A stretch of DNA of 64,000 bases from Escherichia phage vB_EcoM-UFV09. A program made the position numbers and the translations under genes. The stretch's first letter is position 1; each line of letters begins with the position of its first letter. The notes under the pieces were generated by a model, which searched no databases, had not been told where the DNA came from, and worked only from the letters and a program-made list of their open reading frames with translations. Below, in pieces: positions 8,747 to 52,784 of the stretch. Location of the stretch: sequence record MZ291552.2, one strand, 5' to 3'.

Positions 8747-8951
8747 TGATTGTGACAGTTTTCACTTCGCCGCAAAAGAATTCTAACGCAATTAAATCTC
8801 GTTCAATTTCTTCTAATTGAAGCATTAACTTGCCAGATTCAATTTTTACATTTCTACGATTTTTACTATAAGCTATTTCATAAATTTCGCTCACTTTATC
8901 TTGAAGCAGATAAAACTGGTCTTTAGTTATTTCCACGAATAGCTTCCTCAA
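8691..8951 (-). CDS. hypothetical protein
   Basis: 86-aa ORF between dexA and dda. Confidence 0.4.
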   Translation of the reverse strand: MRKLFVEITKDQFYLLQDKVSEIYEIAYSKNRRNVKIESGKLMLQLEEIERDLIALEFFCGEVKTVTISDYVLGEINHLYKAVIND

Positions 8952-9183
8952 ATTTAATTAGTAATTTACAGACACTTTCATCTAGTGTAATTACCGTATC
9001 TGTATTACTGTGATATGATTGTTTTTCAATTCGTTTAATTGCTAATATAGTATCACTTATAAGATAAAGCTTATGAAGGAGCTCAGCTCCTGTTACCATA
9101 ACATCGAGATTATCTTGCTTATTAGTATGCTTCCTTATACCATCTATTAGACGATTTAAATATTTTGAATTGATGTTAATCAT
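8923..9183 (-). CDS. hypothetical protein
   Basis: 86-aa ORF between dexA and dda. Confidence 0.4.
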   Translation of the reverse strand: MININSKYLNRLIDGIRKHTNKQDNLDVMVTGAELLHKLYLISDTILAIKRIEKQSYHSNTDTVITLDESVCKLLIKFEEAIRGNN

Positions 9184-9189
9184 ATATCC

Positions 9190-10509
9190 TCACACATAAA
9201 ATACGTCATAACGACCACGGGTAACACCAACATAAAGAAGTTGTTGAGCCAATTCAGCATCTGCATAATGAATACAAGGCGTATAAATGAAAGCACGGTC
9301 TACAGACATACCCTGAGCTTTATGGAATGTTGATGCAGGAAGTGCTTTCACTTTACTAAACTGTGATTTAGCATCCCAAAAATCACTCCATGGAGCTTTT
9401 CCGCCTTTGTTCCAATTTTTATAAGTTTCTGCCGTTTTACCTAAAAATAAGTTAAACTTATACAGCTCTTCATCAGATGAAATTATTTTAATCTTTTCAC
9501 GATAATATTCATCATCGCCGTAAGTTTCTACTGTTAAATCCCAATGACGAATTAGATATTCTCCAGGAACACCACGAGCTTTAACAAATGTTGATGTATA
9601 TTCTGCTTCTATAATACGAACTAATTGTCCGTTATTAAAAATAATTTCTGACACAGGCTTTCCATCAATTTTATATGTTTTAATTAATGGTTCCTGCATT
9701 ACAATAATTTCACCGACAATAAAATCTTTATCAGTTTCAAAAATCTTTTTACGAATAATGCTATTTAACTTGTCAACAGATTTATTCGTAAATGCCATTA
9801 CGCGATTTTCAAACAAATCATCTAGTGATTTGACGATTGAAAAATAATTTACCATAAAATCGCGTAAAGCGGTATCACCAGTAAATCCACGTACTCCATG
9901 CCCGTCAACAACTTTATCATAAATCCACTTACCGTTGCGAACATCAGTAGCTACATCAATAATAGGAGCATTACTGCGTTTAACTTCAGTGAGTTCACAC
10001 TGATAAAAATCTTTGTGTGTAAAAAATGGACTGATATAAGCAGTGTTTTCTCCTGGGTCAACAGGTCTAATTTGCTTATTATCACCTATTCCAATTATAG
10101 TACACCACGGCGGGATAGTTGAAAGCAGAATTTTAAATAGCTTTCTATCATACATTGACACTTCGTCGCAGATTAATACCCTGCATTTAGCTAAATCTGG
10201 TACTTCCTTCTGTTCAAAAAGAACGTTTTCTTCATATGTTACGGGGTTAATTTTAAGAATACTGTGAATAGTACTCGCTTCTTTCCCCGACAGTTTTGAA
10301 AGAATCTTTTTAGCTGCATGTGTAGGAGCTGCCAAAATGATACCAGTTTCGCCCGTAGATATTAAAGCTTCAATGATGAACTTAGTAAGAGTAGTCTTAC
10401 CAGTACCAGCAGGTCCATTAATAGTTACATGATGTTTCTTTTCTTTAATAGCCCTCATAACGATGTTAAAGGCATTTTTCTGACCTTCGGTCAAATCATC
10501 AAATGTCAT
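9190..10509 (-). CDS. dda: Dda DNA helicase (SF1)
   Basis: 439 aa, near-identical along its length to recalled T4 Dda (MTFDDLTEGQKNAF..., Walker A GPAGTGKTT). Confidence 0.95.
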   Translation of the reverse strand: MTFDDLTEGQKNAFNIVMRAIKEKKHHVTINGPAGTGKTTLTKFIIEALISTGETGIILAAPTHAAKKILSKLSGKEASTIHSILKINPVTYEENVLFEQKEVPDLAKCRVLICDEVSMYDRKLFKILLSTIPPWCTIIGIGDNKQIRPVDPGENTAYISPFFTHKDFYQCELTEVKRSNAPIIDVATDVRNGKWIYDKVVDGHGVRGFTGDTALRDFMVNYFSIVKSLDDLFENRVMAFTNKSVDKLNSIIRKKIFETDKDFIVGEIIVMQEPLIKTYKIDGKPVSEIIFNNGQLVRIIEAEYTSTFVKARGVPGEYLIRHWDLTVETYGDDEYYREKIKIISSDEELYKFNLFLGKTAETYKNWNKGGKAPWSDFWDAKSQFSKVKALPASTFHKAQGMSVDRAFIYTPCIHYADAELAQQLLYVGVTRGRYDVFYV

Positions 10510-45653: not shown

Positions 45654-45932
45654 TTATTCCTTAATTCCTAGTACTTGTTTAAAAGTCTCGTCGTAATCAA
45701 GACTTTGGCCCGTTTGTTCTTTATGTTTGTATATAATATCACTTACTTCTGATAGCATATTTTTATATGAACGAGTTAAAGCAGATTTAAGCACGCTGTA
45801 TCTATCAGGAAATTTACCGTGTTCATTATAATAAGCTATTGCTAATTCACGGACTGCCTTTTCAGCAGCCTCCATATATTCTTTACGCTTGGTCATTTTA
45901 ATCCAAAATATTATTAGGCATTGGTTGAACAC
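45654..45932 (-). CDS. hypothetical protein
   Basis: 92-aa ORF. Confidence 0.4.
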
Positions 45933-46287
45933 TCACAAGTTCTTTAAAGAACTCAGTAGAGTCAGGCAATTTAACCATTTCCGGAGCATGCTTACTGAAT
46001 TTATGTTTACATTGACGGCATTTATATTCAAGCTCTGGTTTACGCCAGTTAATCAATTGAACTTGTTCAGTACCGCATTCAGGGCAATTAGGAACGTTTT
46101 TAGAAGCTCTTTCACGTCGTTCAACCATAGCCATAATAGCATCCCATGCTGGAGGTTTAAAATCTAAATCGTCGCAGCCGTGAATCTTTCCACGCATTTC
46201 CATATCATCTTCCTCACCAGCCATAATAATTTTAATTAGACTAGAATTACTTGAAGCTGCAATGTCTTCTAATAAACGCTTTTTCAT
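45898..46287 (-). CDS. zinc-ribbon hypothetical protein
   Basis: 129 aa with CPECG...CRQC. Confidence 0.4.
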
Positions 46288-47210
46288 TTCAATACCTCAA
46301 TAGCATTACGTAAACCATTTGCTTTTGCGTTAAGAGATTTTAACAATTTGGTGTGTTCTGCAATTTGGGCTTCAACTTCAATCAAACGGGCATTGAGATA
46401 TTCGCGTTCTTCTTTCATAGTATCATTCCCATGATTGGGTTTTGGTGCAGATTTAAATTCACTAGGGTCCTTTAACTTAATAACAAATTTAGTTTCAAAC
46501 AGTGAAAGACCATAATTCGTATTATCATCAAAGGATTTAACTACATCCATATTAGATAATAACTCATGCAAATTATAAGACAAAGAACTAATAGTTTCAT
46601 TGTGTTTATTAGCTTCGCGTGGTTTCATATACGGAAGATTTTTATATATCTCATGCGGAGCACAAATGATAATTGACAATTCAAATTGTCCATTCTGGGA
46701 CGATGGAGTGAATTTAGCCGTAACCCAGTCTTTTACATTCACATTAATAGTACGGTTATCACCATGACAAAACAATCTACGAGAATGCTTAAAAAGCATA
46801 TTCACGTTATTATTGAATTCGTGTGAAAATTCACTGGCAAATTTTTCTTTACTATCTTTAGAAAACCATTCTTCTAAATAAGTTCTTTTCACGTCGTTAA
46901 TAATATTAAATGTAACAACATTAGCATTTGATACATTAGTCTCAATGTAGCTTGGATACATAAATTTTTTAACATTATTAACAGCTATCACAGAAGATAG
47001 TAATCGGGAACGTTTGAACCACTCGAGCAAAGAACCAAGAGAATGTGAATACGCGTTTTGCGTATCTTTACAAATATGGTTTTCCCATCCAATATAGTCT
47101 AAAAAATCACGAAGAATATTATTGATTACTGCTCTGTGTCCTATCTGATAATTACGATGTTTAGTAATAAGACTGTCAAAATAATCAATATAATGTTTAC
47201 GAGTTTTCAT
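46284..47210 (-). CDS. hypothetical protein with C-terminal coiled coil (family member 1 of 4)
   Basis: 308 aa; C-terminal ~40 aa heptad-like (…[29 protein letters not shown]). Confidence 0.5.
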   Translation of the reverse strand: MKTRKHYIDYFDSLITKHRNYQIGHRAVINNILRDFLDYIGWENHICKDTQNAYSHSLGSLLEWFKRSRLLSSVIAVNNVKKFMYPSYIETNVSNANVVTFNIINDVKRTYLEEWFSKDSKEKFASEFSHEFNNNVNMLFKHSRRLFCHGDNRTINVNVKDWVTAKFTPSSQNGQFELSIIICAPHEIYKNLPYMKPREANKHNETISSLSYNLHELLSNMDVVKSFDDNTNYGLSLFETKFVIKLKDPSEFKSAPKPNHGNDTMKEEREYLNARLIEVEAQIAEHTKLLKSLNAKANGLRNAIEVLK

Positions 47211-47264
47211 GTTCTTCTCACTTGGTTAATGATTTATACTCCGAGCCATCCTTGGCTTTAAATT

Positions 47265-48296
47265 TTACTTAATTAACTGTAAAGCTTGTTCAAGACGATC
47301 AAGACGATTAACGGATTCTTCCCAAATCTTTTTAGCCTTCTCATATTCTTTCTGTGCTTTATTAGAAATTTCTAGAGCTCCTTTATAAGCTTTTTCTAAT
47401 GCAATAATTTCTGGACGAATTTCTACCGGTTCAGGCGAATCATCAAGATTATCCATTAGTTCCTCAAGGGTAGTTTCTTCTTTAGGGGTATTCACAATTT
47501 CTTCGCATTTTTGTTGGTAAATTTCTTTATCAGTCGGTGAATACGCACATTTCACTTCACGAAGACTAACTACAATTTTGTATCCTTCCCAACCACACAT
47601 ATTCTTAAAAGGATATGTATGAATATTTTCTACTGTTTCCATACAAAGTAATGCAGTCTCTAACTGACGAGTTATAGTGCTAGCAATTGAGAAAAATTTA
47701 TTAATATTCTTTTGGTTAGCGTTTGGTGTAAAAAATCCATAATTCACAAAAATAGCTACTTTATTTTCGTCAAGCTCATATTCTTTTACGATAATCATAT
47801 CAGAAGCCAAAGGATGAATTTGACGATAATCGCCATAACATAATTTAGAAGCTGATTTTAGAATTTGTCCTTTGAAAAGTCTGAAATTACTAATCCAACG
47901 ACGAGTAAAAATATTCTCAGGGTCTTCTTTATTATTAAGATGATAAGAATTAACATCACCGAACCAATTGTATCCTACTACATTTTTAGTTCGTTTAATT
48001 TCTTTCCCAAATTTACCAAGAATATCTCTGTTAACTAAATATGAAAGAAGACGAGACCCTTTAAAGGTTTCCTTAATATCATCTTTATCTGCACGACTAG
48101 AAATTTTATGAACTTCATGAATAAATTTGCTGGAAGAAACAATGCTTGCATCAGTATTATTGAGCCATTGATTGATAATAGAAATAACACTATTCTGACT
48201 AGACATAGGTTTAACTTTATCATCAATAACGCTATTGAATGATTTGATATATTCGTTGCGAGTCATATTAATCTCCTCAGTAGAAAGTAAGAACAT
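47265..48296 (-). CDS. hypothetical protein with C-terminal coiled coil (member 2 of 4)
   Basis: 343 aa; C-terminal coiled-coil-like tail. Confidence 0.5.
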   Translation of the reverse strand: MFLLSTEEINMTRNEYIKSFNSVIDDKVKPMSSQNSVISIINQWLNNTDASIVSSSKFIHEVHKISSRADKDDIKETFKGSRLLSYLVNRDILGKFGKEIKRTKNVVGYNWFGDVNSYHLNNKEDPENIFTRRWISNFRLFKGQILKSASKLCYGDYRQIHPLASDMIIVKEYELDENKVAIFVNYGFFTPNANQKNINKFFSIASTITRQLETALLCMETVENIHTYPFKNMCGWEGYKIVVSLREVKCAYSPTDKEIYQQKCEEIVNTPKEETTLEELMDNLDDSPEPVEIRPEIIALEKAYKGALEISNKAQKEYEKAKKIWEESVNRLDRLEQALQLIK

Positions 48297-48324
48297 TATA
48301 CCACATCCTTGTGGCGAAGTAAAC
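48295..48324 (-). promoter_or_regulatory. T4-type early promoter
   Basis: Minus strand reads GTTTACttcgccacaaggatgtggTATAAT. Confidence 0.5.
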
Positions 48325-49343
48325 TAGTTTAGTGCATTTAGTGCATTGTTCAATTTAGAACGTTGCTTTGTCAGATTTTGAACCCTTGACTGAGCTTGTT
48401 CTAACACCTTTTCAGCTTCTAGCACTTCATTGGTCGCTTTAATGAGTTCAGCATCTACTGCCTTAAGAGACTTCTCAATCGCGTCAGCGTGCCATTTTTC
48501 TACAGGTTTAAAATTTGAATTTTCAGTAGGAAGAAAATTCACTTTATTAAATTTCCATGCATCTTTATTACCTGAGCTATACATCCAAAATTTAGGATCG
48601 TTTGATGAGCAATTAGATAAATTTAAGTTATCTTGTACTTCCTGCTTTTTCTCTTGCGGGACTTCATCCTTTCTCAAAAAATCGTATTTAAATGAAACGA
48701 TCATATCAAGTTCATACGTTGTTGTATGTTCCCAATTTCGCTCAAAATGAGGTAAAATCTTAGACTGAACAGCGGCAACAACATCCATATACTTAAATGC
48801 TTCTGTCAACTGTGATTTAAGGCATTCACAAATTGAAAGAGAATTTTTTGTATTAGGCTTAAAGCTAATTCGTGCAGTTCTATTATTTTCTTTTAACGGT
48901 CTTACTTCCATCTGAAGAGTATAACCATCAAATTTCAGGTTCTTTAAGTTAATGTCAGAACCTTTTAATCGACTAGCAGTAGACAAAATTTGCTTTAATT
49001 GTTTACGGAATAAAGCAATAAATCTCCATTCAAGACGATAATGATTTGGATTAAAAAATCCTGTTGATAAATCAACCTTACTCTGACCAACGCCTTGAAC
49101 AAATAGAGGATTTTTATAATCAATAGTTTTACAGAAATCGGTGAGCTGCTCACGAGCAGTCATTTGTGTAATATATCCCGCTTTACTAAAATGACGTAAC
49201 CATTCACTGCTATTCATATACTTAAAGTGAATGGAACTATTAACTCTATCAGGGTCTAAATTATTTTGGCACAAAAATGTCATAACATTACGGGTATAGC
49301 TAGCATTACGAACCATATCTTCAATTTGAGAACGAGTTTTCAT
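48324..49343 (-). CDS. hypothetical protein with C-terminal coiled coil (member 3 of 4)
   Basis: 339 aa; C-terminal coiled-coil-like tail. Confidence 0.5.
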   Translation of the reverse strand: MKTRSQIEDMVRNASYTRNVMTFLCQNNLDPDRVNSSIHFKYMNSSEWLRHFSKAGYITQMTAREQLTDFCKTIDYKNPLFVQGVGQSKVDLSTGFFNPNHYRLEWRFIALFRKQLKQILSTASRLKGSDINLKNLKFDGYTLQMEVRPLKENNRTARISFKPNTKNSLSICECLKSQLTEAFKYMDVVAAVQSKILPHFERNWEHTTTYELDMIVSFKYDFLRKDEVPQEKKQEVQDNLNLSNCSSNDPKFWMYSSGNKDAWKFNKVNFLPTENSNFKPVEKWHADAIEKSLKAVDAELIKATNEVLEAEKVLEQAQSRVQNLTKQRSKLNNALNALN

Positions 49344-49351
49344 AGTGTTCC

Positions 49352-50260
49352 TTAAGATTTAAGTAAATCAACAATTTTAATTAATTTTTCACGCTCAGAT
49401 TTAGCTTTACTACTCAATCCAGATAGTCTGAAAATTTCATCGTCATACTGTTGAATAGAAATATTTAGCTCTTCAATTTGCTTATTAAAATAATCAATTT
49501 GCTCAGAATGTTTTTCATTACTGCGAACTGGTATAGGGTTTGTAGGCAATTTAGTTGAACTAGATTCATCCGGGCGATAAATTAAAATACAACTTGAACC
49601 AATTGGACATTTTGCACCAGATGAATATTCTAATGTTCCGGCTTCTTTTAAAACTTCAAAAGCTAAACAGAGATGATGCCCCATATTAACATAATCTGTA
49701 GAGCGAGCTCTGATGTAATAATCATCTCCGCGAATACTAAATTTAAAGCATTTAAGGTCTTCTGTATTATTGGTCTTAAAAATCATTTGTTTATCTAGAC
49801 CTTTAGCTAATCGAGCGCCTAATGCTAATAATCGTCGTTGATTTTCCCACAAATCTGCGATCATTTGGTCAAATGATAATTTCGGCATTAGTCGACCATA
49901 AAGGTCATATCCTTTATTATAATTACGAAGGATTTCACTCGCGTTAATACGAGACAATGCTCCAATTTTATTAAGGGCTTTCATAATGCGATTAGATAAA
50001 CCCATTCCAGACCCGTTTGTTCGCTGCAAATGTTTTTCTAATCCAAATCCAATATCAACTTTAAACTTATCTAAAATTTCTGCATGAACATCTCTGTCAA
50101 TAACATTCAAATCCAAAGTTGGGTTAAATCTATGAAAAAATTTATCTGGCTCTCCACGACGAAGTACAGTCCATTCATTCATTTTTTTATTAACTAAAGA
50201 TTTAATTACTGTATTGACATTATTAATTACTACTGACATATTTTCCTCACTCAATTTCAA
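49352..50260 (-). CDS. hypothetical protein with C-terminal coiled coil (member 4 of 4)
   Basis: 302 aa; C-terminal coiled-coil-like tail. Confidence 0.5.
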   Translation of the reverse strand: MKLSEENMSVVINNVNTVIKSLVNKKMNEWTVLRRGEPDKFFHRFNPTLDLNVIDRDVHAEILDKFKVDIGFGLEKHLQRTNGSGMGLSNRIMKALNKIGALSRINASEILRNYNKGYDLYGRLMPKLSFDQMIADLWENQRRLLALGARLAKGLDKQMIFKTNNTEDLKCFKFSIRGDDYYIRARSTDYVNMGHHLCLAFEVLKEAGTLEYSSGAKCPIGSSCILIYRPDESSSTKLPTNPIPVRSNEKHSEQIDYFNKQIEELNISIQQYDDEIFRLSGLSSKAKSEREKLIKIVDLLKS

Positions 50261-50654
50261 TTTTACTAAATATACAGAATATGATGGAAAAGACTATATA
50301 AGCACCACAAACAGATTGAACTAATACCATTCCAAAGAACCAAACAATATTATCAAACCATGTCTGTTTTACGTCGAAAGGACGTAAACTTACAGTAATA
50401 TTATCACCTTTTTCTATTGAAGAATACATCTCTGGGGAAATATATTCACTAAATCTATAACCGTCTTTGAGTTCATATACAGCAATAAACGATAAACTAG
50501 ACCCCTTTCCTTGTGTTCCTGTAATAGTATTAACTACAGTAACATCATAATCTTTATAATGCATATAATCATTAATTGCGTAATAACCATATGCAACTAC
50601 TACACATAAACAACATATCAATAAATTCAATCTTTTAATTATCAACTGTTTCAT
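50247..50654 (-). CDS. membrane protein
   Basis: 135 aa with N- and C-terminal hydrophobic segments. Confidence 0.45.
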   Translation of the reverse strand: MKQLIIKRLNLLICCLCVVVAYGYYAINDYMHYKDYDVTVVNTITGTQGKGSSLSFIAVYELKDGYRFSEYISPEMYSSIEKGDNITVSLRPFDVKQTWFDNIVWFFGMVLVQSVCGAYIVFSIIFCIFSKIEIE

Positions 50655-50709: not shown

Positions 50710-51237
50710 TTATGCGAGTACCGTCTTTAACCGTTCTTCAAACTTCCGAAGAGTATTCTGGCGTTCAGCTCTTTGCTTTTTGTAAGTTTCAATACGCTCT
50801 GAAATGAGAGTGTATCGTTCATTTACTGATTCTTTCATAAAATCAGGAATTTCACGAGAAGCTTTAATCTCGTCAAATTTATCAATAACAGCTTGCTCTT
50901 CAGCAATTAAGTTATCATACATCAAAATATCTTTCTTGATGAACTCAATATCTTCTTGAGTTACACGAGATAATTTAAATGCTTTATCCTTTTTGTACTG
51001 TTCGTTAGTATCACGAGACCAGTGTAATGTACGATTTTTATTCGTATTCTTATAAATTTCTACAATACCAATATCATCAATAATAACGATCCAATTCCAA
51101 CGGGATTTGTAAATTTGTCCTCCATCAACTGTGATTTCACCTCCGATTGAGATGTCATTAAAGAACTTGCTTTGTGCTTCTGATTTAAATTTACCATCGT
51201 TGTAATTTACCAAGTTGAAAATATCTTTAGCGTTCAT
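50710..51237 (-). CDS. hypothetical protein
   Basis: Trimmed to MNAKDIFNLV... (~175 aa); the track ORF reads through the promoter repeat. Confidence 0.45.
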   Translation of the reverse strand: MNAKDIFNLVNYNDGKFKSEAQSKFFNDISIGGEITVDGGQIYKSRWNWIVIIDDIGIVEIYKNTNKNRTLHWSRDTNEQYKKDKAFKLSRVTQEDIEFIKKDILMYDNLIAEEQAVIDKFDEIKASREIPDFMKESVNERYTLISERIETYKKQRAERQNTLRKFEERLKTVLA

Positions 51238-52670: not shown

Positions 52671-52765
52671 TTTATTCTCCAAATCCGTATCAGTTGATAG
52701 TTGTATAGTACCATAAAGCTTTATGCTTGTAAACTGTTTTGTGAAAAAATTTTTGAAATAAAAAA

Positions 52766-52784
52766 GGGAGCCCGAAGGCTCCCT
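52766..52784 (-). terminator. stem-loop downstream of the NTase-like gene
   Basis: gggagcc-cgaa-ggctccc hairpin after an A-run on the plus strand. Confidence 0.5.

What the first reader, a model, noticed from the sequence alone, without database searches (positions are those of the whole stretch)
46284..50260. Tandem array of four ~300-340-aa proteins that each end in a coiled coil
Four consecutive genes (308, 343, 339 and 302 aa) share an architecture: a ~250-aa globular part followed by a ~40-aa heptad-like C-terminal tail. Primary sequences have diverged strongly. This looks like a diversifying paralog family in the hyperplastic region between nrdC and rI. Such families in phages are often host-interaction or anti-defence factors.
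Basis: seen in the sequence. Interest (0 to 1): 0.55.

Follow-up and report, generated by a model that had tools for sequence, protein, structure and literature searches.

The report
Phage T4 nrdC.3–nrdC.6 paralog array
Four neighbouring early genes of a T4-type phage are very distant copies of one ancestral gene, each with a fast-changing globular body on a conserved coiled-coil tail; one copy (nrdC.5) is already known to switch off the bacterial Dsr1 defence, so the other three are good candidates for further defence inhibitors.

Summary
The window is a Tequatrovirus, 100% identical to phage vB_EcoM-UFV05, and the four minus-strand genes are T4 nrdC.3, nrdC.4, nrdC.5 and nrdC.6. Their true lengths are most likely 308, 333, 339 and 295 aa. 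All four end in a 45-57-aa heptad helix, and their tails rank 1, 2, 3 and 5 of 75 ORFs in the window.

BLASTP links only nrdC.3 to nrdC.4. Profile-profile comparison through single-copy relatives in Jiaoda-, Kanagawa- and Mosugukvirus connects all four: 72-98% probability on the globular domains alone, against 2.1% or less for reversed controls. The two AlphaFold models show the same order of elements, and the nrdC.6 model matches the bridging proteins by Foldseek.

The tails are more conserved than the bodies. dN/dS is 0.16-0.30, against 0.02-0.08 for neighbours, with no gene-wide positive selection.

Published work shows that T4 nrdC.5 neutralises Dsr1. The neighbours nrdC.1 and the nrdC.8 counterpart of phage Bas37 inhibit Septu and Druantia III.

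Best reading: an expanded family of modular defence inhibitors inside a T-even anti-defence island. The genes and one function are known. The family link and the candidate status of nrdC.3, nrdC.4 and nrdC.6 are the new part. Interest is moderate.

The parts
46284..47210 (-). nrdC.3 (308 aa). Family C3, paralogous to nrdC.4.
   Evidence: ORF. phrog_1435, E 9e-100. 90.6% identical to the T4 copy. hhalign C3-C4 98% probability. Two alleles exist within Tequatrovirus.
46287..46421 (-). nrdC.3 coiled-coil tail (last 45 aa).
   Evidence: One heptad register, 85% hydrophobic a/d. 91% and 78% identical to the second allele and the Mosigvirus copy, where the N-domain is only 58% and 55%.
47265..48266 (-). 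nrdC.4 (333 aa from the ATG at 48266; the mechanical ORF runs to 48296). Family C4 (PF26897).
   Evidence: Start site and Shine-Dalgarno sequence. hhalign C4-J 87% on N-domains.
47268..47417 (-). nrdC.4 coiled-coil tail (last 50 aa).
   Evidence: 79% hydrophobic a/d. Tail 60-68% identical across genera against 42-52% for the N-domain. This tail is grafted onto an nrdC.6 body in phage Manna.
48295..48323 (-). Sigma-70/T4-early-type promoter-like site (TTTACT-17-TATAAT with extended -10 TG) in the nrdC.5-nrdC.4 gap.
   Evidence: This is a consensus match only. The number of such sites in the region is not above shuffles.
48324..49343 (-). nrdC.5 (339 aa). DUF7235/PF23882. Ortholog of the T4 anti-Dsr1 gene.
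   Evidence: Pfam 396.9 bits against a cut-off of 30. 91.8% identical to T4 nrdC.5. Function from PMC9391042.
48327..48497 (-). nrdC.5 coiled-coil tail (last 57 aa).
   Evidence: 94% hydrophobic a/d. AF2 helix 283-338, block pLDDT up to 93. Tail-only hhalign to family K 92%.
49352..50239 (-). nrdC.6 (295 aa from the ATG at 50239; the mechanical ORF runs to 50260). PF26899.
   Evidence: AF2 model with pLDDT 76.8. Foldseek matches to the bridging proteins of PM2, IME523 and Mineola.
49355..49510 (-). nrdC.6 coiled-coil tail (last 52 aa; two helices with a break at RLSGLS).
   Evidence: Tail-only hhalign to family K 84%.
50710..51237 (-). Context: nrdC.8 (175 aa). It also has a heptad tail but is not detectably related to the four.
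   Evidence: hhalign below 1% to all families. Its Bas37 counterpart by position and length (bas37_0203) is reported as a Druantia III inhibitor. The Bas37 sequence was not compared here.
45654..45896 (-). Context: nrdC.1 (80 aa), 98.75% identical to T4 NrdC.1.
   Evidence: T4 NrdC.1 is reported as a Septu inhibitor.
45898..46287 (-). Context: nrdC.2 (zinc-ribbon protein). It is the conserved downstream neighbour that marks the ancestral position of the family.

Best explanation
nrdC.3, nrdC.4, nrdC.5 and nrdC.6 are four highly diverged paralogs of one ancestral Tevenvirinae early gene.

That ancestor sits as a single copy immediately upstream of nrdC.2 in Jiaoda-, Kanagawa- and Mosugukvirus. 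It has expanded to three copies in Mosig-, Dhaka- and Gaprivervirus and to four in Tequatrovirus.

Each protein is modular:
- a fast-evolving globular body, made of an alpha-helical part followed by a beta-beta-alpha-beta-beta unit;
- a disordered linker;
- a more conserved C-terminal heptad helix.

The family works as non-essential, host-specific inhibitors of bacterial anti-phage proteins.
- NrdC.5 neutralises the SIR2-TPR NADase Dsr1. This is shown for the T4 ortholog.
- I infer that the variable body is the target-recognition surface. The most likely mode is direct binding that blocks the sensor or effector of the defence protein, as DSAD1 does for DSR2.
- I infer that the coiled-coil tail oligomerises the inhibitor.
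- I infer that nrdC.3, nrdC.4 and nrdC.6 each address a different defence protein or variant.

Shown here: anatomy, common ancestry and evolutionary pattern. Taken from the literature: the Dsr1 phenotype and non-essentiality. Inferred: direct binding, oligomerisation and an anti-defence role for the other three.
For: Identity and context:
- The window is 100% identical to Tequatrovirus vB_EcoM-UFV05 and 93.5% identical to T4 over the array.

Common ancestry, globular domains only:
- hhalign gives C3-C4 98%, C4-J 87%, K-J 82%, C5-J 80%, C6-K 79%, C3-J 72% and C4-C5 53%.
- All alignments are collinear.
- Reversed-template controls reach 2.1% at most.
- The unrelated coiled-coil protein nrdC.8 scores below 1%.

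Common ancestry, tails only:
- C5-K 92%, C6-K 84%, C3-K 53%, anchored at the C-terminus.

Structure:
- The nrdC.5 and nrdC.6 models show the same order of elements: helices, two strands, a helix, two strands, a disordered linker, then the terminal helix.
- The nrdC.6 model matches the bridging proteins of IME523 (E 1.7e-7), PM2 (8e-7) and Mineola (2.5e-4) in BFVD.

Synteny:
- The gene order nrdC.8-(7)-6-5-4-(3)-2 holds in 17 loci.
- There is a single copy upstream of nrdC.2 in PM2, Roth68, IME523, PEi20, Mineola and Metamorpho.

Evolutionary pattern:
- Tails are more conserved than bodies. For nrdC.3 the figures are 78-91% against 55-58%; for nrdC.6, 60-69% against 31-41%.
- dN/dS is 0.16-0.30, against 0.02-0.08 for the neighbours.
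- nrdC.3 has two alleles about 62% identical in otherwise roughly 93% identical genomes.

Function (literature):
- Plasmid-borne T4 nrdC.5 restores plating of a deletion mutant on Dsr1-carrying cells (PMC9391042).
- nrdC.3 to nrdC.6 are non-essential in T4 and Bas37.
- nrdC.1 inhibits Septu, and bas37_0203 (the nrdC.8 counterpart by position) inhibits Druantia III.
- The Dsr1 sensor is reported to recognise major capsid proteins (PMC12803255).
Against: - No experiment links nrdC.3, nrdC.4 or nrdC.6 to any defence system.
- In the two Bas37 HIDEN-SEQ comparisons I read, insertions in bas37_0198-0201 had no fitness effect: log2FC between -0.73 and 0.05, adjusted p 0.81-1.0. The paper's main text does not list these genes as hits.
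- Direct binding of NrdC.5 to Dsr1 has not been shown.
- The direct links C6-C3, C6-C4 and C6-C5 are weak (8% or less). nrdC.6 joins the family only through family K and through Foldseek.
- The nrdC.5 model is poor (pLDDT 46), so fold identity of all four proteins is not demonstrated. nrdC.3 and nrdC.4 were not modelled.
- dN/dS stays below 1, which also fits merely relaxed constraint.
- The oligomeric state of the tails is untested.
Confidence: 0.6

Rival explanations
1. The four are true paralogs, but the family's ancestral job is not counter-defence. It could be, for example, a host-takeover or regulatory factor acting on a host complex. On this view nrdC.5's effect on Dsr1 is a special or indirect case, and nrdC.3, nrdC.4 and nrdC.6 do something else.
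For: No phenotype for the nrdC.3-6 orthologs in the HIDEN-SEQ comparisons read. No fold or family match that points to any mechanism. The array is retained in about 93-100% of Tequatroviruses, which is more stable than many anti-defence genes.
Against: All four are dispensable in the laboratory. They lie among three experimentally supported anti-defence genes. The bodies evolve faster than the neighbours and faster than the tails. nrdC.3 has deeply diverged alleles. This is the pattern expected for proteins that track variable host targets.
Confidence: 0.2
2. The extra copies are drifting, partly redundant duplicates under relaxed constraint, on their way to loss. They are not functionally specialised inhibitors.
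For: dN/dS is raised but below 1. nrdC.4 is frameshifted in one phage (L008). Deletion hybrids exist in Manna and P0056. Pinarejo keeps only the last 47 aa of nrdC.6. Tails are shortened in vB_EcoM_005 (L010).
Against: Intact full-length copies of each gene occur in roughly 460-500 of about 500 Tequatrovirus records. dN/dS of 0.16-0.30 still indicates purifying selection. Orthologs are kept across four genera despite only 20-50% identity.
Confidence: 0.12
3. The four genes are unrelated and only share a convergent layout of a globular domain plus a coiled coil.
For: BLASTP finds nothing beyond nrdC.3-nrdC.4. Pfam and PHROGs keep them in three or four separate families. Direct hhalign probabilities for nrdC.6 against nrdC.3, nrdC.4 and nrdC.5 are 8% or less.
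Against: Collinear profile links run through two bridging families on tail-less domains, with clean reversed controls. Tail-only links are specific and end-anchored. nrdC.8, which also has a heptad tail, gives nothing. Foldseek links the nrdC.6 model to both bridging families. The secondary-structure order is the same, and the genomic position is conserved.
Confidence: 0.05

Closest known systems
T4 NrdC.5 (DUF7235, PF23882), reported to counteract Dsr1 of E. coli ECOR17 (Srikant, Guegler & Laub 2022, eLife, PMC9391042)
   Same: The window's nrdC.5 is its ortholog: 91.8% identity, the same position, and a Pfam score of 396.9 bits. By the profile evidence, the other three genes are its distant paralogs.
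   Different: The paper treats nrdC.5 as a lone uncharacterised gene. No mechanism, domain architecture or relationship to nrdC.3, nrdC.4 or nrdC.6 is described there. The window copy itself was not tested.
DSAD1, the SPbeta-group phage inhibitor of DSR2 (PMC10973363, PMC11087589, PMC10981675; abstracts seen)
   Same: It is a phage protein that switches off a SIR2-type NAD+-depleting defence protein. It is the obvious mechanistic analogue for NrdC.5 acting on Dsr1.
   Different: It acts on a different defence protein and comes from a different phage group. No sequence or fold relationship was looked for directly, and none appeared in the searches. That DSAD1 acts by binding the sensor region of DSR2 is from my own knowledge, not from anything read here. 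Direct binding is only inferred for NrdC.5.
The other anti-defence genes of the T-even nrdC cluster: NrdC.1 (Septu inhibitor) and Bas37_0203, the nrdC.8 counterpart (Druantia III inhibitor) (bioRxiv 10.1101/2025.11.20.689424)
   Same: Same early-gene cluster, non-essential, host-specific. Together they make the region an anti-defence island.
   Different: Neither is homologous to the nrdC.3-6 family. nrdC.8 scores below 1% by hhalign despite its own heptad tail.
T4 internal proteins IPI, IPII and IPIII, and Bas37_0260
   Same: Conceptual parallel: a set of phage counter-defence proteins that share one short conserved module (an N-terminal capsid-targeting sequence) joined to otherwise unrelated or diverged bodies.
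   Different: In that set the shared module is an N-terminal packaging signal and the bodies are not homologous. Here the shared module is a C-terminal coiled coil and the bodies are remote homologs. Nothing suggests that nrdC.3-6 are packaged.

Membership tests
DUF7235 / PF23882 (NrdC.5 family) | Sequence match above Pfam's gathering score. | tested here: met
   nrdC.5 scores 396.9 bits against a cut-off of 30, over the full length. nrdC.3, nrdC.4 and nrdC.6 do not match this model.
DUF7235 / PF23882 (NrdC.5 family) | Orthology to T4 nrdC.5: high identity and the same genomic position. | tested here: met
   91.8% identity over 340 aa, lying between nrdC.6 and nrdC.4.
DUF7235 / PF23882 (NrdC.5 family) | Ability to restore phage growth on Dsr1-carrying cells. 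| not testable with these tools
   Shown only for the T4 protein (PMC9391042).
nrdC.3-6 superfamily (proposed here) | Homologous globular domain, tail excluded. | tested here: met
   hhalign on tail-less alignments gives C3-C4 98%, C4-J 87%, K-J 82%, C5-J 80%, C6-K 79% and C3-J 72%. Reversed controls reach 2.1% at most. The link for nrdC.6 is indirect, through family K and Foldseek.
nrdC.3-6 superfamily (proposed here) | Homologous heptad tail anchored at the C-terminus. | tested here: met
   Tail-only hhalign gives C5-K 92%, C6-K 84%, C3-K 53% and C5-J 50%. The nrdC.8 tail scores 7% at most. The signal for nrdC.4 is weak (18% at most).
nrdC.3-6 superfamily (proposed here) | Shared three-dimensional fold in all four proteins. 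| tested here: inconclusive
   Only nrdC.6 gave a usable model (pLDDT 76.8). The nrdC.5 model is poor (46), and its Foldseek hits are meaningless. The secondary-structure order agrees between the two.
Coiled coil | Continuous heptad periodicity with hydrophobic a/d positions in a long helix. | tested here: met
   79-94% hydrophobic a/d in a single register over 45-57 residues. AF2 helices. Ranks 1, 2, 3 and 5 of 75 ORFs. The score used is a home-made heptad score, not COILS or MARCOIL.
Coiled coil | Actual helix-helix oligomer (dimer, trimer or hetero-oligomer). | not testable with these tools
   No multimer prediction or experiment was available.
Thioredoxin/glutaredoxin (the product name many GenBank records give these genes) | Thioredoxin-fold domain with a CxxC active site. 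| tested here: not met
   No thioredoxin or glutaredoxin Pfam or NCBIfam match. No CxxC motif in any of the four proteins. The name appears to be carried over from the locus name 'nrdC.x'.

The most novel reading that the evidence does not exclude
The family is a modular counter-defence platform. A conserved, exchangeable coiled-coil scaffold carries rapidly replaceable recognition domains. The tails may let the co-expressed paralogs co-assemble into one multi-specific inhibitor complex. Natural tail swaps would then be a way of generating new specificities. Examples are the nrdC.6 body on the nrdC.4 tail in phage Manna, the nrdC.5/nrdC.3 hybrid P0056, and the two nrdC.3 alleles on one tail.
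Probability: 0.15. Interest if true: 0.75.

Novelty: new member of a known kind. Interest (0 to 1): 0.45.

Why it matters
T4 is the best-studied phage, yet most of its roughly 130 non-essential early genes have no function. nrdC.5, the only known Dsr1 inhibitor in the library searched, has three adjacent remote paralogs with the same modular build. That turns three hypothetical proteins into specific candidates for new defence inhibitors. It also suggests a design principle that is easy to test: a conserved oligomerising tail plus a variable recognition body. Finally, it explains why copy number at this locus runs from 1 to 4 across T-even genera. The result also corrects two gene starts and a widespread 'thioredoxin' misannotation.

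Tried and rejected
- BLASTP all-against-all found only nrdC.3-nrdC.4, which is too insensitive. Direct family-to-family hhalign without bridging sequences left nrdC.6 unconnected.
- The AlphaFold2 model of nrdC.5, built from a shallow alignment of 13 mostly 87-93% identical sequences, was poor (pLDDT 46). Its Foldseek search of BFVD gave only meaningless hits with TM 0.15-0.26.
- Sequence searches of the PDB found nothing for any of the four. NCBIfam gave nothing. The afdb50 library was unavailable.
- The exhaustive HMM search with the nrdC.5 profile found only 13 representatives among 1.84 billion proteins. It did not reach the other families.
- nrdC.8 was tested as a possible short member and rejected, at below 1%.
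- Ac42 proteins with coiled-coil tails gave no sequence signal. The extension to Acinetobacter phages therefore rests only on Foldseek hits to Acj9, Acj61 and fHyAci03.
- P0231 and P0236 carry foreign N-termini on an nrdC.5 tail. P0231 lies on an 803-bp metagenome contig. The contig of P0236 was not looked up. Both may be assembly chimeras, so I discounted them.
- Gene-wide positive selection was looked for with pairwise NG86 and not found. No site-model test was run.
- I read only part of the HIDEN-SEQ supplementary tables. The CFE303, CFE331 and later comparisons were not checked for these genes.

Full report
**What is there**

The window is a Tequatrovirus. The 3,977-bp segment is 100% identical to Escherichia phage vB_EcoM-UFV05 and 93.5% identical to T4. 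The four minus-strand ORFs at 46284-47210, 47265-48296, 48324-49343 and 49352-50260 are the T4 genes nrdC.3, nrdC.4, nrdC.5 and nrdC.6.

They lie in a tightly packed early-gene run. nrdC.7 ends 8 nt before the likely nrdC.6 start. The gaps that follow are 8, 27 and 54 nt. nrdC.3 overlaps nrdC.2 by 4 nt.

- nrdC.4 most likely starts at the ATG at 48266, giving 333 aa. That ATG follows GAGGAG and lies downstream of a TTTACT-17-TGnTATAAT promoter-like site.
- nrdC.6 most likely starts at the ATG at 50239, giving 295 aa. That ATG follows GAGGAAA.
- The PHROG match boundaries and the T4 gene sizes agree with both.

**The shared architecture is real and not chance**

Each protein ends in 45-57 residues that stay in one heptad register, with 79-94% hydrophobic a/d positions.

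AlphaFold2 predicts a single long terminal helix in nrdC.5 (283-338, block pLDDT up to 93). In nrdC.6 it predicts two terminal helices (245-271 and 277-294). In both, a disordered linker precedes the helix.

With a simple C-terminal heptad score, the four genes rank 1, 2, 3 and 5 among the 75 ORFs of at least 100 aa in the window. Rank 4 is nrdC.8, two genes away.

**Are they paralogs?**

BLASTP sees only nrdC.3 against nrdC.4, at 25.6% over 168 aa. PHROGs merges those two (phrog_1435) and keeps nrdC.5 and nrdC.6 apart. Pfam has separate families: PF26897, PF23882 (DUF7235) and PF26899. Direct profile-profile comparison gave C3-C4 98%, C4-C5 about 46-60%, and nothing for nrdC.6.

The decisive step was to find single-copy relatives in other Tevenvirinae genera. 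These are 309-337-aa proteins with a heptad tail, encoded immediately upstream of nrdC.2.
- Family K: Mosugukvirus PM2 and Kanagawavirus IME523 and PEi20.
- Family J: Jiaodavirus Roth68, Metamorpho and Mineola.

With the tails removed, hhalign links C4-J (87%), K-J (82%), C5-J (80%), C6-K (79%), C3-J (72%) and C3-C4 (98%). All alignments are collinear. Reversed-template controls never exceed 2.1%.

The tails alone also match specifically and end-anchored: C5-K 92%, C6-K 84%, C3-K 53%. The heptad tail of the unrelated nrdC.8 scores 7% at most, and whole nrdC.8 scores below 1% against every family.

Independently, the nrdC.6 model (pLDDT 76.8) matches the BFVD models of IME523 (E 1.7e-7), PM2 (8e-7) and Mineola (2.5e-4). 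It also matches 300-335-aa proteins of other Straboviridae.

The nrdC.5 and nrdC.6 models share the same order of elements: an N-terminal helical part, two strands, a helix, two strands, a linker, then the terminal helix.

I conclude that the four are remote paralogs that inherited body and tail together. The weakest point is that the fold was modelled confidently for nrdC.6 only.

**Evolutionary pattern**

The gene order nrdC.8-(7)-6-5-4-(3)-2 is conserved. Copy number is:
- one in Jiaoda-, Kanagawa- and Mosugukvirus;
- three in Mosigvirus (6-, 5- and 3-like), and three in Dhaka- and Gaprivervirus (6-, 5- and 4-like);
- four in Tequatrovirus.

Within Tequatrovirus the genes are almost always present. 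About 495-501 records carry nrdC.3, nrdC.5 and nrdC.6, and 464 carry nrdC.4. For comparison, 498 records carry a Tequatrovirus-level nrdC.11.

The bodies diverge much faster than the tails:
- nrdC.3: 55-58% against 78-91% identity;
- nrdC.4: 42-52% against 60-68%;
- nrdC.6: 31-41% against 60-69%;
- nrdC.5: 19-24% against 26-39%.

nrdC.3 exists as two alleles about 62% identical in genomes that are otherwise roughly 93% identical.

Pairwise dN/dS within Tequatrovirus is 0.16-0.30 for the four genes. It is 0.02-0.08 for nrdC, nrdC.8, nrdC.9, nrdC.10 and nrdC.11. This means faster protein evolution but no gene-wide positive selection.

Rearrangements occur:
- Phage Manna carries one hybrid gene, nrdC.6 residues 1-262 fused to the nrdC.4 linker and tail, with nrdC.5 deleted.
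- P0056 is an nrdC.5/nrdC.3 hybrid.
- One phage has a frameshifted nrdC.4, and another has shortened tails.
- Sf25 has an internal duplication in nrdC.6.

**Function**

The literature supplies one direct result. A T4 clone that had lost a block of accessory genes could not plate on E. coli ECOR17, or on MG1655 carrying ECOR17 dsr1. Expressing T4 nrdC.5 alone restored plating (PMC9391042). The window protein is 91.8% identical to that gene.

Dsr1 is a SIR2 NADase. A 2026 preprint reports that its TPR sensor recognises phage major capsid proteins (PMC12803255).

A transposon study found nrdC.3 to nrdC.6 non-essential in T4 and Bas37. It identified nrdC.1 as a Septu inhibitor and bas37_0203 as a Druantia III inhibitor (bioRxiv 10.1101/2025.11.20.689424). 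By position and length, bas37_0203 is the nrdC.8 counterpart. The window's nrdC.1 is 98.75% identical to T4's. The array therefore sits inside an anti-defence island.

No phenotype is reported for nrdC.3, nrdC.4 or nrdC.6. In the two Bas37 comparisons I read, insertions in their orthologs were neutral.

No solved structure, Pfam or NCBIfam family, or PDB fold suggests a mechanism.

**Most likely mechanism**

The anatomy is a variable body, a flexible linker and a conserved coiled coil. One member has a demonstrated role and the genes sit in a defence-related neighbourhood. I therefore favour a family of modular inhibitors.
- The body binds a host defence protein. For NrdC.5 this is Dsr1, most simply by occluding its sensor or its NADase domain, as DSAD1 does with DSR2.
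- The tail oligomerises the inhibitor.
- The duplicates have specialised on different targets.

These steps are inferred. Only the Dsr1 phenotype, the non-essentiality and the sequence-derived points are shown.

Alternatives are: a non-defence ancestral role, drifting redundant duplicates, and convergence. The third is poorly compatible with the profile, tail, synteny and Foldseek evidence.

**Comparison with what is known, and novelty**

The genes are long-annotated T4 ORFs, and the nrdC.5-Dsr1 link is published. Full-text searches for the gene names and for DUF7235 found nothing that describes the four as one family, their shared tail, or the single-copy ancestor.

I therefore file this as new members of a known kind, namely phage anti-defence accessory genes related to NrdC.5. 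It is moderately interesting because it gives three concrete candidates and a testable modular design. It is not a new category.

Many GenBank records call these genes 'thioredoxin'. That is wrong: there is no thioredoxin domain and no CxxC motif.

Noticed in passing
window 46284-50654 and many GenBank records: nrdC.2 to nrdC.11 are widely annotated as 'thioredoxin'. The name seems to be carried over from the locus name. The four proteins have no thioredoxin or glutaredoxin domain and no CxxC motif.
   Followed up: yes
window 46284-47210; L002:6001-6930: nrdC.3 occurs as two deeply diverged alleles within Tequatrovirus: 139 records at 80% or more, and 356 at 60-80% amino-acid identity to the window copy. 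The N-domain is 58% identical and the tail 91%, in genomes otherwise about 93% identical at the DNA level.
   Followed up: partly
L018:5215-6252 (Salmonella phage Manna): A single 345-aa hybrid gene joins nrdC.6 residues 1-262 to the nrdC.4 linker and tail at a DEI/EEI microhomology. nrdC.5 and most of nrdC.4 are deleted.
   Followed up: yes
P0056, P0058 (proteins): P0056 joins the middle of nrdC.5 to the C-terminal half of an nrdC.3-type protein. P0058 (Shigella phage Sf25 nrdC.6, 378 aa) carries an internal tandem duplication of about 83 aa that covers the beta-alpha-beta unit and linker.
   Followed up: partly
L008:8950-9982; L010:6446-6871 and 8781-9752; phage Pinarejo (H277): nrdC.4 is split by a frameshift in one Tequatrovirus. 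nrdC.8 and nrdC.4 of vB_EcoM_005 have internal deletions that shorten the tails but keep the last 10 or so residues. Pinarejo retains only the last 47 aa of nrdC.6.
   Followed up: no
window 50710-51237 and 45654-45896: nrdC.8 corresponds by position and length to Bas37_0203, reported as a Druantia III inhibitor. nrdC.1 is 98.75% identical to T4 NrdC.1, reported as a Septu inhibitor. Both flank the array, which marks the region as an anti-defence island. nrdC.8 has its own heptad tail but is unrelated to the four.
   Followed up: partly
window 45898-46287: nrdC.2 here is 129 aa with a C-terminal end (…[22 protein letters not shown]) that T4 and SG1 (104 aa) lack. It is only about 78% identical to the T4 copy, whereas other loci carry an identical 129-aa form.
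   Followed up: no
window 52765-52784: A strong terminator-like hairpin (8 bp stem, 6 GC pairs, followed by a T-run on the minus strand) lies between nrdC.11 and nrdC.10.
   Followed up: no
L020:15290-16075, L021:16138-16926, L025:3142-3930, L023:2256-3026: In the single-copy genera, a conserved gene of about 260 aa without a coiled-coil tail lies a little upstream of the nrdC.3-6-like gene, with 0-2 small ORFs in between. It shows no detectable relationship to the family.
   Followed up: partly
L022:19853-21857 (Acinetobacter phage Ac42): Two adjacent genes of 348 and 318 aa also end in heptad-like tails. Foldseek linked the nrdC.6 model to proteins of similar size in Acj9, Acj61 and fHyAci03, but profile comparison with the Ac42 proteins gave no signal.
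   Followed up: partly
P0231 (L019, 803-bp contig) and P0236: These metagenomic proteins carry unrelated N-termini fused to a near-identical nrdC.5 tail. They are probably assembly chimeras, but a real domain swap cannot be excluded.
   Followed up: partly
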